Of a DNA stretch of 64,000 nt, positions 34,631-35,688 are shown one piece after another. Numbering within the stretch: the stretch's first letter is position 1; each line of letters starts with the position of its first letter. The notes beneath the pieces were generated by a model. It did not search any database. It was not told the DNA's origin and saw only the letters and a list, made by a program, of their open reading frames with translations. This stretch comes from an uncultured Bacilli bacterium (lineage in GTDB: Bacteria > Bacillota_I > Bacilli_A > RF39 > UBA660), in contig CAKOLG010000001.1 of the NCBI GenBank assembly GCA_934096175.1, positions 117,736-181,735 on the forward strand. The letters run 5' to 3'. The position numbers and the translations under genes are program-made.

Positions 34631-34636
34631 CATAAT

Positions 34637-34665
34637 TTGACATTAAATATAAATTTTGTTAAAAT
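34637..34665 (+). promoter_or_regulatory. sigma-A-type promoter (TTGACA-17-TAAAAT) driving the downstream non-coding region
   Basis: Consensus -35 TTGACA at 34637-34642, a 17-nt spacer, and -10 TAAAAT at 34660-34665, right after the murA stop. Confidence 0.5.
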
Positions 34666-34671
34666 GCTAAA

Positions 34672-35150
34672 CAAGTTGTGGTGCACTATCCTAGTCACAA
34701 ACAATGTTTGAAGGTAGGCCTAAAAATCTACCAATTGTACTACTATGACACTTTGTACATTTGCTTGATTCGCCCAGATTTGGGTGAATGTATAATTTAA
34801 AATATAAGGAAGAGTTATAACGGCATATAACAATATCCTTTTATTAGGTCACAATAAAAAACATTAGTGCATGTCGTGAGTGGTTATGTGGGATAATTAA
34901 TTTGAAAATATGACTGCAAAAGCGAATAAGAGCATTCCCTTTGTGTATGAGAAATTCTCTAGGGTGTATATATTATAAAGTTTGAGGTGCGGACTAAGTG
35001 GTAATCGAGTAATCGAACGGGTAACATTCGATTAATTCCTTTAAAGAGAAATCGCCAGAGAGTAATCAATGGTAAGAATTAGAGAAACTCAACTCGACCA
35101 AAGCCGTAAAATTAATTTATAATATACCATATACTAAACCATTACTTTAT
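34672..35150 (+). ncRNA. candidate large structured non-coding RNA (possibly OLE-like) co-transcribed with a downstream 4-TM protein
   Basis: ~480 nt with no ORF >30 codons on the + strand. GC content is visibly higher than the flanks and it contains many short hairpins. It is promoter-proximal and has no terminator before the next gene. Confidence 0.45.
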
Positions 35151-35163
35151 ATAAGGAGAGTTA

Positions 35164-35688
35164 ATGATGAAAAAAAATATTAACTGGATATATAAAGTTT
35201 TTTTATTATCCTTTATACTATCTATTATTTTTAGCGGTATATCTTCTATGATGATTAATTATTTTAATAGCATTATTTTAATAATTGTTTTATTAGTTGT
35301 TATAAGTATCGGTATTGTATTTGATATGGTCGGCGTTGCAGTACTTACCAGTAATGAATCAAATTTACATGCCAAAGCCTCAAAAAAAATAAAAGGAGCC
35401 AAAGAAGCTATTTCACTAATCAAAAATGCCACTAGAGTATCTTCAATCTGTAATGATGTTATTGGTGATATTTGTGGTATTGTAAGTGGAAGTTTAGGTG
35501 CTTTTTTAACAATTATAATTTGCAATAAATTTGCTTTACCCAATACCATAGTTACAATGATAGTAACAGCGGTTGTTTCAGCCTTAACGGTTGGTTTTAA
35601 AGCAGTATTCAAAAGTGTTGCAATCAAAAACAGTGATTCAATTGTTTTGACAGTTGGAAAAATCAAAAATTTTTTAAAACTAAAATAA
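35164..35688 (+). CDS. small four-TM membrane protein (OapA-like candidate)
   Basis: 174 aa (~19 kDa) with four predicted TM helices. It lies immediately 3' of the structured RNA candidate. Confidence 0.6.
   Translation: MMKKNINWIYKVFLLSFILSIIFSGISSMMINYFNSIILIIVLLVVISIGIVFDMVGVAVLTSNESNLHAKASKKIKGAKEAISLIKNATRVSSICNDVIGDICGIVSGSLGAFLTIIICNKFALPNTIVTMIVTAVVSALTVGFKAVFKSVAIKNSDSIVLTVGKIKNFLKLK

What the first reader, a model, noticed from the sequence alone, without database searches (positions are those of the whole stretch)
34631..35688. ~480-nt GC-enriched, ORF-free, promoter-driven region feeding into a small 4-TM protein: candidate large structured ncRNA (OLE RNA / OapA-like arrangement)
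Seen in sequence. A consensus TTGACA-17-TAAAAT promoter lies immediately after murA. About 480 nt follow, with no ORF and noticeably more G+C than the flanking intergenic DNA, in stretches such as GGTGCGGACTAAGTGGTAATCGAGTAATCGAACGGGTAACATTCG and CGCCCAGATTTGGGTG. The region has many local hairpins and no terminator before the next gene. That gene encodes a 174-aa protein with four TM helices. Established knowledge: OLE RNA (~600 nt) in anaerobic Firmicutes is encoded directly upstream of, and co-transcribed with, oapA. OapA is a ~21-kDa four-TM protein that anchors the RNA to the membrane. I checked by eye for RNase P, tmRNA, SRP, T-box and common riboswitch cores and found none. I cannot confirm OLE consensus positions without a covariance model.
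Basis: partly seen in the sequence, partly recalled or inferred. Interest (0 to 1): 0.7.

Follow-up and report, generated by a model that had tools for sequence, protein, structure and literature searches.

The report
Short OLE RNA with its OapA partner
The ORF-free stretch after murA is a real but already described type of large bacterial noncoding RNA: a shortened "variant 2" OLE RNA from a gut RF39-type bacterium, transcribed just upstream of the gene for OapA, the membrane protein known to anchor OLE RNA to the membrane in the studied species.

Summary
The observation and the interpretation both hold. Window 34662-35146 (+) matches Rfam OLE (RF01071) end to end at 233.5 bits, E 1.3e-64 (gathering score 50). 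The structural core, from P1 to P1, is 34677-35131 (455 nt).

It is the short form that Fernando & Breaker (2024) call "variant 2", typical of the uncultured gut order RF39. P7 and P8 are replaced by a 21-nt linker, the distal 44 model positions of P9 and the small model hairpin (here called P11) are missing, and every other helix is kept.

In 33 short homologues, 58 of 103 model pairs show compensatory changes, and 89.6% of cells pair against 38-43% when partners are slid. RNAalifold independently recovers P1, P2, P3/P3.1 and P4a.

A TTGACA-17-TAAAAT promoter (34637-34665) sits about 10 nt before P1. It is conserved at that position in almost all of the 33 loci.

The downstream 174-aa ORF is OapA. 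It has four hydrophobic segments, an invariant DxxxD motif (D98, D102), a basic loop, a sub-threshold CNNM match, and 46-49% identity to OapA proteins next to full-length OLE RNAs.

The nearest relatives are uncultured Bacilli MAGs and Ca. Coprovivens (RF39). They share the order prmC-spoIIR-murA-ole-oapA-rpmE.

Verdict: a new member of a known kind, of modest interest.

The parts
34637..34665 (+). Sigma-70-type promoter of ole-oapA: -35 TTGACA (34637-34642), 17-nt spacer with a TG, -10 TAAAAT (34660-34665). The inferred transcription start is around 34672.
   Evidence: 11 of 12 matches, TG present; the same TTGACA-17-TAtAAT box lies at a near-fixed distance from P1 in almost all of 33 homologous loci. 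The start site is inferred, not measured.
34662..35146 (+). OLE RNA (Rfam RF01071), short 'variant 2' form. The structural core from P1 to P1 is 34677-35131 (455 nt).
   Evidence: 233.5 bits, E 1.3e-64, model 1-616; 97 canonical pairs, 10 non-canonical, 6 deleted; covariation in 33 homologues; core length, and 88% identity to the closest relative, L002.
34677..34682 (+). P1, 5' strand (UGUGGU). It pairs with 35126-35131 (ACCAUA) and closes the whole RNA.
   Evidence: RNAalifold, columns 16-21 with 542-547. Column pair 21/542 switches between U-A (22 sequences) and A-U (8 sequences).
34687..34694 (+). P2, 5' strand (UAUCCUAG). It pairs with 34959-34966 (CUAGGGUG). Both strands contain the palindrome CUAG, in the region where an OapA-binding site was mapped in H. 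halodurans.
   Evidence: columns 26-33 with 356-363. Column pair 29/360 has four pair types: GC 11, UA 8, CG 7, AU 5. The binding-site location comes from PMC12265935 and was not tested here.
34696..34708 (+). P3 (34696-34700) and P3.1 (34703-34708), 5' strands. They pair with 34941-34945 and 34931-34936. This helix encloses domain 1 and is the proposed membrane-spanning stem.
   Evidence: columns 35-48 with 326-342, with many compensatory changes. The membrane-spanning idea is the hypothesis of PMC12265935.
34713..34732 (+). P4 hairpin with the invariant A-rich loop CCUAAAAAUC, a published dimerisation centre.
   Evidence: helix 1: 100% paired, 2 covarying pairs. for its role.
34736..34740 (+). 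P4a, 5' strand (UGUAC). It pairs with 34867-34871 (GUGCA) and encloses P5 and P6. It is preceded by the conserved palindrome CAAUUG.
   Evidence: columns 76-81 with 224-228 (column pair 80/225: GC 18, AU 11). The name is assigned from the paper's text, not from a figure.
34753..34795 (+). P5/P5.1 hairpin with the invariant loop GCCCA, a kissing-loop partner of P6.1 in the published dimer.
   Evidence: helix 2 (19 pairs, 9 with compensatory changes)..
34801..34845 (+). P6/P6.1 hairpin with the conserved loop containing GGCAU.
   Evidence: helices 3 and 4. for invariant columns.
34846..34866 (+). A 21-nt A-rich linker where full-length OLE RNAs carry P7 and P8 (80 model positions).
   Evidence: model segments of 44 and 36 positions replaced by 9 + 9 nt.. 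This matches the definition of variant 2 in PMC11332333.
34874..34925 (+). Shortened P9. The proximal stems are kept and the distal 44 model positions are missing. The terminal loop is GGGAUAAUUAAUUUGAAA and contains the 8-nt palindrome AAUUAAUU.
   Evidence: helices 5 and 6 (9 covarying pairs). for the loop and palindromes.
34948..34958 (+). P10 mini-hairpin (UGAGAAAUUCU). The next small model hairpin (here called P11) is absent: one A stands in its place.
   Evidence: helix 7.
34969..35126 (+). Domain 2 multi-helix region.
- P12: 34969-34979 with 35116-35126.
- P12.1: 34988-34995 with 35102-35108.
- P12.2: 35005-35010 with 35092-35097.
- P13 hairpin: 35012-35032, GUAA loop at 35021-35024.
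- P14/P14.1: 35033-35081, GUAA loop at 35062-35065.
- P15: 35082-35090.
   Evidence: helices 8-13. for coordinates. Names follow PMC7936274. P15 was read by eye from the sequence.
35153..35158 (+). Shine-Dalgarno sequence AAGGAG of oapA, 5 nt before the ATG at 35164 and 8 nt before the ATG at 35167.
   Evidence: Read directly from the sequence.
35164..35688 (+). oapA: a 174-aa membrane protein with four TM segments (173 aa if translation starts at 35167), DxxxD at D98/D102, and a basic loop from K71 to R91.
   Evidence: (CNNM PF01595, 23.6 bits, below the 28.4 cut-off).. (46-49% identity to OapA proteins beside full-length OLE RNAs, with CNDVxGDxCG invariant).
35717..36020 (+). Downstream unit, not part of the RNP: promoter-like site (35717-35744), L31 ribosomal-protein leader (35764-35794), rpmE (35802-36014) and a terminator-like hairpin (36001-36020). 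No terminator-like site was found between oapA and rpmE.

Best explanation
The region is an ole-oapA transcription unit.

A dedicated sigma-70 promoter just after murA drives a roughly 460-nt OLE RNA followed directly by the oapA mRNA. The RNA is the published short 'variant 2' form: no P7 or P8, no P11, and a truncated P9.

By homology with the H. halodurans system, the RNA folds into two domains. Domain 1 comprises P3 to P9. Domain 2 comprises P1, P2 and P10 to P15. The RNA is bound by the four-TM, CNNM-like protein OapA and held at the membrane as a ribonucleoprotein. In the studied species this complex helps cells withstand cold, short-chain alcohols, excess Mg2+ and poor carbon sources, possibly by controlling OapA-mediated divalent-cation flux.

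Shown here: the identity of the RNA and the protein, the conserved structure, the promoter, the gene order and the clade. Inferred from the literature: RNA-protein binding, membrane localisation, dimerisation and the physiological role. The biochemical activity of OLE RNA is unknown in any organism.
For: - Rfam RF01071 hit at 233.5 bits, E 1.3e-64, covering model positions 1-616.
- 97 of 107 retained model pairs are canonical in the window.
- In 33 short homologues, 89.6% of cells pair (38-43% when partners are slid by 1-3 columns), 58 of 103 pairs carry compensatory changes, and 0 of 500 shuffles reach any of the five measures.
- RNAalifold, run without the Rfam model, recovers the same helices plus P1, P2, P3/P3.1 and P4a. 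69 of its 124 pairs covary.
- The loop sequences of three published dimerisation centres (P4 A-rich loop, P5.1 GCCCA, P6.1 GGCAU) are invariant.
- The promoter is conserved in position in almost all of the 33 loci.
- 73 of 78 oapA-homologous loci scanned carry an OLE hit, nearly always directly upstream of oapA.
- OapA hallmarks: four TM segments, DxxxD, a basic loop, a weak CNNM match, and a marginal profile match (E 0.32) to CorB 7M1U, the structure the literature names as the closest (PMC11332333).
- Relatives are Bacilli MAGs and Ca. Coprovivens, which belongs to RF39, the clade where variant 2 was described.
Against: - There are no expression, processing or localisation data for this organism.
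- The bit score is under half that of full-length OLE RNAs (up to 531 bits in L063), because about 130 model positions are missing.
- Ten model pairs are non-canonical in the window.
- The thermodynamic z-score is only -2.06.
- The C-G pair needed for the OapC k-turn in H. halodurans is not maintained here, so the set of protein partners probably differs from the model organism.
- The OapA structure prediction was of low confidence (pLDDT 59.6) and added nothing.
Confidence: 0.94

Rival explanations
1. The stretch is only a long structured 5' leader that controls oapA in cis (a riboswitch or attenuator-like element), not a stable RNA that acts as part of a particle.
For: It lies directly upstream of oapA on the same strand, with no terminator in between, so it is physically a 5' UTR of the oapA message.
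Against: It matches the OLE covariance model end to end at E 1.3e-64. In a few relatives the OLE gene lies 2-3 kb away from oapA (L011, L029, L076), which a cis leader could not do. The literature shows that OLE RNA binds OapA protein and is needed in trans-like fashion (PMC12265935).
Confidence: 0.03
2. It is a decaying remnant of an OLE gene in a reduced genome. It is still recognisable but no longer functional.
For: About 130 model positions are deleted (P7, P8, P11, distal P9) and 10 pairs are non-canonical. RF39 genomes are reduced and reportedly lack OapB and OapC (PMC11332333).
Against: The same short architecture is kept across 33 loci whose core identity to the window falls to 68%. 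It shows 58 compensatory pairs, invariant loop motifs and a conserved promoter. This is the signature of purifying selection on structure. oapA is intact and conserved.
Confidence: 0.02
3. It is a functional OLE RNA that works as a minimal two-component particle of RNA plus OapA only, with a partly different role from the H. halodurans complex. The role might be tied to cell-wall or ribosome genes rather than to the gene neighbourhood seen in well-studied species.
For: The k-turn C-G pair is not conserved. P7, P8 and P11 are absent. The RF39 clade is reported to lack OapB and OapC. The gene order murA-ole-oapA-rpmE is conserved in the closest relatives.
Against: This is a refinement of the main explanation rather than a true rival. 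The P13 GNRA loop that OapB contacts is still conserved in most relatives, although it also makes an RNA-RNA tertiary contact. Absence of OapB and OapC cannot be judged from 64 kb.
Confidence: 0.3

Closest known systems
OLE RNA 'variant 2' (Fernando & Breaker 2024, mSphere, PMC11332333), commonly found in the RF39 clade
   Same: It lacks P7 and P8 entirely, keeps the highly conserved nucleotides of full-length OLE, is followed by oapA, and has RF39-type gut Bacilli as its closest relatives.
   Different: Nothing essential differs. This exact sequence has at most 88% core identity to the 32 short relatives aligned here. Its OapA is at most 76% identical to anything in the 5.8-billion-protein set. 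I additionally document the loss of P11, the P9 tip, the conserved promoter and the murA/rpmE context. I could not check whether the paper's figures already show these.
Full-length OLE RNA (Rfam RF01071; H. halodurans, Clostridium acetobutylicum)
   Same: The same helices are present: P1-P6, P9 proximal part, P10, P12-P15. The same invariant sequence blocks and the same downstream partner gene oapA are present.
   Different: It is about 130-160 nt shorter: no P7, P8 or P11, and a truncated P9 arch. The k-turn pair for OapC is not kept. My recollection is that ole lies in an isoprenoid/nusB-type neighbourhood in classic examples; I did not check this, and here it sits between murA and rpmE.
OLE RNA 'variant 1' (TANB77 clade)
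   Same: It is also a shortened OLE from reduced-genome gut bacteria.
   Different: Variant 1 only shortens P7, P8 and P9 and often loses the P13 tip that binds OapB. Here P7 and P8 are gone altogether and the P13 GNRA loop is kept.
MpfA/CorB/CorC (CNNM-domain Mg2+ transporters)
   Same: The OapA transmembrane region gives a weak CNNM match (PF01595, 23.6 bits) and a marginal profile match to CorB 7M1U, as published for OapA.
   Different: OapA is only 174 aa with no CBS or CorC domains, has four rather than three TM helices, and carries the DxxxD motif that CNNM domains lack.

Membership tests
OLE RNA (Rfam RF01071) | Scores above the curated gathering threshold of the covariance model over its full length | tested here: met
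   233.5 bits against a threshold of 50, E 1.3e-64, model 1-616, not truncated.
OLE RNA (Rfam RF01071) | The conserved multi-helix secondary structure is supported by covariation | tested here: met
   58 of 103 pairs are compensatory; 89.6% of cells pair against 38-43% when slid. An independent RNAalifold run gives the same helices plus P1-P3 and P4a. Both tests use relatives, and the shuffle control ignores phylogeny.
OLE RNA (Rfam RF01071) | Blocks of near-invariant sequence (for example GUGGUGCA...CUAGUCA, CCUAAAAAUC, GCCCA, GGCAU, UGCAAAAGCG, GCGGACUAAGUGGUAAUCGAGU, CUCGACCAAAGCCGUAAAAUU) | tested here: met
   All are present in the window and invariant or nearly so across the 33 homologues.
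OLE RNA (Rfam RF01071) | oapA lies immediately downstream on the same strand | tested here: met
   oapA starts about 33 nt after the 3' strand of P1. 73 of 78 oapA loci scanned carry an OLE hit, which lies directly upstream of oapA in nearly all of them.
OLE RNA (Rfam RF01071) | Full-length architecture, including P7, P8, the long P9 arch and the small P11 hairpin | tested here: not met
   Model segments of 44 + 36 positions are reduced to 18 nt. The 44-position P9 tip and the 12-nt hairpin are absent. It is therefore filed under the published short variant, not the full-length form.
OLE RNA (Rfam RF01071) | k-turn flanking P5 that binds OapC (the critical C85-G144 pair of H. halodurans) | tested here: not met
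   By the model alignment the equivalent positions are C and A in the window. They are not consistently complementary in relatives, and J4a/5 varies in length.
OLE RNA (Rfam RF01071) | P13 hairpin with a GNRA tetraloop and a single-nucleotide bulge (the OapB site) | tested here: inconclusive
   A GUAA loop closed by G-C is present and is GNRA in most relatives. The stem has a small asymmetric internal loop rather than a clean one-base bulge. The loop also makes an RNA tertiary contact.
OLE RNA (Rfam RF01071) | A stable transcript localised to the membrane through OapA | not testable with these tools
   This needs RNA-seq, northern blots or imaging.
OLE variant 2 (Fernando & Breaker 2024) | Complete absence of P7 and P8 with the other conserved nucleotides retained | tested here: met
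   (21-nt linker at 34846-34866).
OLE variant 2 (Fernando & Breaker 2024) | The host belongs to RF39 or a similar reduced-genome gut lineage | tested here: met
   The closest loci are uncultured Bacilli MAGs and Ca. Coprovivens, which is GTDB UBA11963 in RF39/CAG-1000. MurA identity is 81-84% with shared gene order. The window's own taxonomy is inferred from these neighbours.
OLE variant 2 (Fernando & Breaker 2024) | The genome lacks OapB and OapC | not testable with these tools
   Only 64 kb is available. Ten small ORFs scanned gave no L7Ae or KOW hit, which says little.
OapA | A small (about 20 kDa) protein with four transmembrane helices | tested here: met
   174 aa with hydrophobic segments at about 8-31, 37-60, 99-121 and 127-150. 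The AF2 model is all-helical but of low confidence.
OapA | A conserved DxxxD motif | tested here: met
   D98 and D102 are invariant in 20 close homologues. They are also invariant in 14 diverse homologues that include partners of full-length OLE RNAs. The motif is defined in PMC11332333.
OapA | Distant CNNM-like similarity without CBS or CorC domains | tested here: met
   PF01595 at 23.6 bits (below the 28.4 cut-off), with no other domain. Marginal match to CorB 7M1U, E 0.32.
OapA | A cluster of basic residues on the loop between TM2 and TM3 | tested here: met
   K71, K74, K75, K77, K80, K87 and R91. The cytoplasmic orientation was not tested.
OapA | Fold similar to the CorB transmembrane dimer | tested here: inconclusive
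   The AF2 model has pLDDT 59.6, and Foldseek against the PDB gave no match with E below 0.78.

The most novel reading that the evidence does not exclude
The RF39 short form may define the minimal working OLE particle: about 455 nt of RNA plus OapA alone, with its own promoter, wedged between murA and rpmE. The lineage may be able to go further still. One relative (L041) has a 381-nt version that also lacks P5 and P6, and so lacks two of the four published dimerisation contacts. If that version is functional, those contacts and the protein-binding k-turn would not be essential to the core activity.
Probability: 0.2. Interest if true: 0.45.

Novelty: new member of a known kind. Interest (0 to 1): 0.25.

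Why it matters
OLE is one of the largest and best conserved bacterial noncoding RNAs whose biochemical function is still unknown. Recent work proposes that it spans the membrane.

Naturally shortened versions show which parts can be lost. This locus adds one more well-delimited example, about 455 nt with a mapped promoter, helix coordinates and partner gene, from an uncultured gut lineage.

The 33-sequence alignment built here shows which helices and loops stay under selection when P7, P8, P11 and the P9 arch are gone. That is useful for designing minimal constructs for structural or biochemical work. It does not change current understanding, because the short variant and its clade were published in 2024.

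Tried and rejected
- **AlphaFold2 model of OapA.** Built from a 20-sequence alignment, it gave pLDDT 59.6. The Foldseek search of the PDB with it returned only meaningless hits with E of 0.78 or higher (K2P channels and the like). Both were discarded.
- **Profile search of PDB sequences.** It gave only a marginal CorB hit (7M1U, E 0.32). This is consistent with the literature but is not evidence on its own.
- **NCBIfam.** It has no OapA model; the only hit was noise (Opp2C, E 0.009).
- **Terminator-like hairpin at 34768-34789.** Rejected as a terminator because it is the covarying P5.1 tip inside a longer helix.
- **ORFs of 36-40 aa inside the RNA.** Treated as chance ORFs.
- **OapC k-turn.** I looked for it by aligning J4a/5 and J5/6, and no conserved C-G closing pair was found.
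- **P9 tip palindrome.** I asked whether the tip keeps a self-complementary loop for kissing. AAUUAAUU is present, but my rough estimate is that short AT palindromes would arise by chance in about a quarter of such AT-rich loops. I report it only as a hint.
- **OapB/OapC in the window.** Ten small ORFs were scanned and none matched. A 64-kb window cannot show absence from the genome.
- **The folding z-score alone (-2.06).** It would not have been convincing without the comparative data.
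Full report
**What is there**

murA ends at 34630 (417 aa; NCBIfam murA equivalog, 583 bits). Seven bases later comes a near-consensus promoter: TTGACA, a 17-nt spacer with a TG, then TAAAAT (34637-34665). 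No ORF longer than 40 aa lies between it and the ATG at 35164.

The stretch has 33.6% G+C, against 27.2% for the whole window and 12-26% for the neighbouring intergenic spacers. The ORF at 35164-35688 encodes 174 aa with four hydrophobic segments.

One point needs interpretation. The scan flags a terminator-like hairpin at 34768-34789. It is the tip of a longer covarying helix, not a terminator.

**Identity of the RNA**

A scan of the whole window against Rfam 15 gives three hits:
- OLE (RF01071) at 34662-35146 on the + strand, with 233.5 bits, E 1.3e-64, model positions 1-616 and no truncation.
- An SRP RNA.
- An L31 leader.

The OLE alignment shows all the hallmark sequence blocks. It also shows four deletions relative to the 616-position consensus:
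- Two adjacent segments of 44 and 36 positions are reduced to 18 nt.
- The distal 44 positions of the next long hairpin are missing.
- A 12-nt hairpin is replaced by a single A.

Of the 113 model pairs, 97 are canonical in the window, 10 are non-canonical and 6 are deleted.

**Which form of OLE it is**

Fernando & Breaker (mSphere 2024, PMC11332333) divided OLE RNAs into three types:
- Full-length.
- Variant 1: shorter P7, P8 and P9, mostly in the TANB77 clade.
- Variant 2: P7 and P8 entirely absent, commonly in RF39.

They note that RF39 and TANB77 organisms largely lack OapB and OapC.

I assigned helix names from the text of PMC7936274, PMC9723947 and PMC12265935. On that basis the two deleted segments are P7 and P8, here a 21-nt linker at 34846-34866. 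The truncated hairpin is P9. The window RNA is therefore a variant-2 OLE.

I could not see the papers' figures, so helix names rest on their text and on the order of helices.

**Relatives and clade**

The OapA-like protein has thousands of homologues (4,780 with E of 0.001 or lower). The best is only 76% identical, and the few hits that carry a source name are called hypothetical proteins of 'Firmicutes bacterium' or 'Bacilli bacterium' MAGs.

A scan of GTDB species genomes returned 80 loci. The closest are uncultured Bacilli MAGs from mouse, rabbit, goat and human gut, together with Ca. Coprovivens. That genus is GTDB UBA11963, in order RF39 and family CAG-1000 (PMC8035907; bioRxiv 10.1101/2025.08.31.672981).

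The closest loci (L001-L004, L007, L019) share the gene order prmC-spoIIR-murA-ole-oapA-rpmE-(ATP-grasp)-rpiB, with MurA 81-84% identical. No locus is near-identical, so the window comes from a species not represented in that collection.

**OLE across the oapA loci**

Across 78 of the loci scanned with Rfam, 73 carry an OLE hit. In nearly all of them it ends just upstream of oapA.
- Short forms, 464-535 nt and 207-252 bits, occur in the Bacilli/RF39-like loci.
- Long forms, 578-689 nt and 298-531 bits, occur in Clostridia, Oscillospiraceae, Faecousia and Tepidanaerobacteraceae.

**Structure and selection**

I aligned the window RNA with 32 short homologues (alignment A2). Their core identity to the window ranges from 68% to 88%.

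I projected the Rfam structure onto this alignment, omitting four impossible zero-loop pairs at the deleted P9 tip. The counts were:
- 89.6% of cells form standard pairs, against 38-43% when the 3' partners are slid by 1-3 columns.
- 58 of 103 pairs have compensatory double changes, against 19-24 when slid.
- None of 500 column shuffles reaches any of the five measures.

RNAalifold on the same alignment, without any Rfam input, recovers these helices. It also finds four that Rfam does not annotate, all with compensatory changes:
- P1: 34677-34682 with 35126-35131.
- P2: 34687-34694 with 34959-34966.
- P3/P3.1: 34696-34708 with 34931-34945.
- P4a: 34736-34740 with 34867-34871.

The whole architecture, with domain 1 (P3-P9) enclosed by P3 and domain 2 (P1, P2, P10-P15), is therefore conserved in the short form.

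The loop sequences of three of the four dimerisation centres seen by cryo-EM are invariant. These are the P4 A-rich loop, P5.1 GCCCA and P6.1 GGCAU. The fourth centre, the P9 tip, is truncated. Its remaining loop contains the palindrome AAUUAAUU. That might still allow a kissing contact, but it could easily be chance in an AT-rich loop.

The same review states that P7 and P8 are not dimer contacts, and suggests this may be why some OLE RNAs can lack them.

**Protein-binding sites on the RNA**

The P13 hairpin keeps a GNRA loop, GUAA at 35021-35024, as do most relatives. In H. halodurans this loop binds OapB and also docks into P12.2. Its conservation therefore does not prove that an OapB exists here.

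The k-turn that binds OapC depends on a C-G pair, positions 85 and 144 in H. halodurans. By the model alignment these positions are C and A in the window. In relatives they are not consistently complementary, and the joining region varies in length. I read this as loss of the OapC site, in line with the reported absence of OapC from RF39. It is an alignment-based inference.

**Transcription**

In almost all of the 33 loci, a TTGACA-17-TAtAAT promoter, usually with an extended TG, ends about 8-11 nt before the first base of P1. This argues for a dedicated promoter with a start a few bases before P1, around 34672 in the window.

There is no terminator-like site between the RNA and oapA, or between oapA and rpmE. 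The AAGGAG at 35153-35158 serves oapA. Homologues begin at the second Met, so 35167 may be the real start codon.

Co-transcription of ole and oapA is inferred from this layout. Whether the RNA is processed away from the mRNA cannot be told from sequence.

**Identity of the protein**

- Pfam gives only a sub-threshold CNNM match: PF01595, 23.6 bits against a cut-off of 28.4. This is the behaviour published for OapA, which clusters just below MpfA proteins in CNNM score.
- The DxxxD motif that distinguishes OapA from CNNM domains is present (D98, D102). It is invariant in close homologues and in diverse ones, including partners of full-length OLE RNAs in L040, L063 and L029, which are 46-49% identical.
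- The loop between TM2 and TM3 carries seven Lys/Arg residues, matching the described basic cluster.
- A profile search of PDB sequences finds only CorB 7M1U/7M1T, at E 0.32-0.34. 7M1U is the entry named in the literature as the closest structure.
- My AlphaFold model was too poor to use.

**How it most likely works**

By homology, the RNA and OapA form a membrane-bound ribonucleoprotein. In H. halodurans the complex is needed for growth under cold, ethanol, excess Mg2+ and some carbon sources. OapA is thought to be a divalent-cation transporter related to MpfA. Recent structural work suggests that an RNA dimer has its P3 stems crossing the membrane.

None of this can be tested from sequence. 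The biochemical activity of OLE RNA is unknown even in the model organism. What this sequence adds is that the short form retains P1-P6, P9 proximal part, P10 and P12-P15 under clear selection.

**Novelty and score**

The class, the short variant, its clade and the OapA partnership are all published. This locus is a new, well-delimited member from an unsampled species. Interest is 0.25.

The most novel reading not excluded is that this lineage defines a minimal RNA-plus-OapA particle that can shrink further. It rests on a single 381-nt relative (L041) that needs confirmation.

Noticed in passing
L041:3628-4008: A rabbit-gut Bacilli MAG has an OLE hit of only 381 nt (134 bits). Model positions 74-277, covering the P4a 5' side, P5, P6, P7 and P8, are replaced by 14 nt, while P1-P4, a short P9, P10 and P12-P15 remain. 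This goes beyond the published variant 2. It is the only such case among 78 loci scanned, so an assembly artefact is not excluded.
   Followed up: partly
L052, L062, L005; L011, L029, L076, L049: A few oapA homologues have no OLE hit within 4 kb upstream (L052, L062) or within the 481 nt available (L005). In L011, L029 and L076 the OLE gene lies 2-3 kb away from oapA, and in L049 about 0.7 kb away, rather than adjacent.
   Followed up: no
window 8739-23312: The window spans the chromosomal replication origin region. On the - strand lie dnaA (16220-17656), dnaN (14948-16066), gyrB (11227-13140) and gyrA (8739-11213). They diverge from rnpA (18062-18385), mnmE (20052-21425) and mnmG (21432-23312) on the + strand. 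The ole-oapA unit lies about 17 kb from this point, co-oriented with the genes on that side.
   Followed up: partly
window 32765-33274 and 39351-39611: The sporulation genes spoIIR and spoIIID are present in what looks like an RF39-type reduced genome. Fernando & Breaker report that sporulation proteins correlate with OLE RNA.
   Followed up: no
window 8306-8400 (-): Bacterial small SRP RNA, 56.3 bits, E 1.2e-09.
   Followed up: no
window 35764-35794 (+): An L31-Firmicutes ribosomal-protein leader lies just upstream of rpmE. At 34.8 bits it only just clears its 33.3-bit threshold. It recurs at the same place in L001, L002, L007, L028, L039, L069 and L071, which supports it. A promoter-like site (35717-35744) precedes it.
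   Followed up: partly
window 47446-48029 (+): A MazF/PemK-type toxin gene (47682-48029) overlaps a small upstream ORF with no Pfam match (47446-47709). This is probably a type II toxin-antitoxin pair.
   Followed up: no
window 36056-37105 (+): An ATP-grasp protein of the 'sugar-transfer associated' type (PF14397, E 3.9e-53) sits between rpmE and an rpiB-like gene. It is present in some relatives at this position but not all.
   Followed up: no
window 34890-34907: The P9 terminal loop GGGAUAAUUAAUUUGAAA contains the 8-nt palindrome AAUUAAUU. Close relatives have AAUU or CAAUUG at the same place, and relatives with longer P9 tips carry UGAUCA-type palindromes. This may be a remnant of the P9 kissing-loop dimer contact, or chance in an AT-rich loop.
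   Followed up: partly
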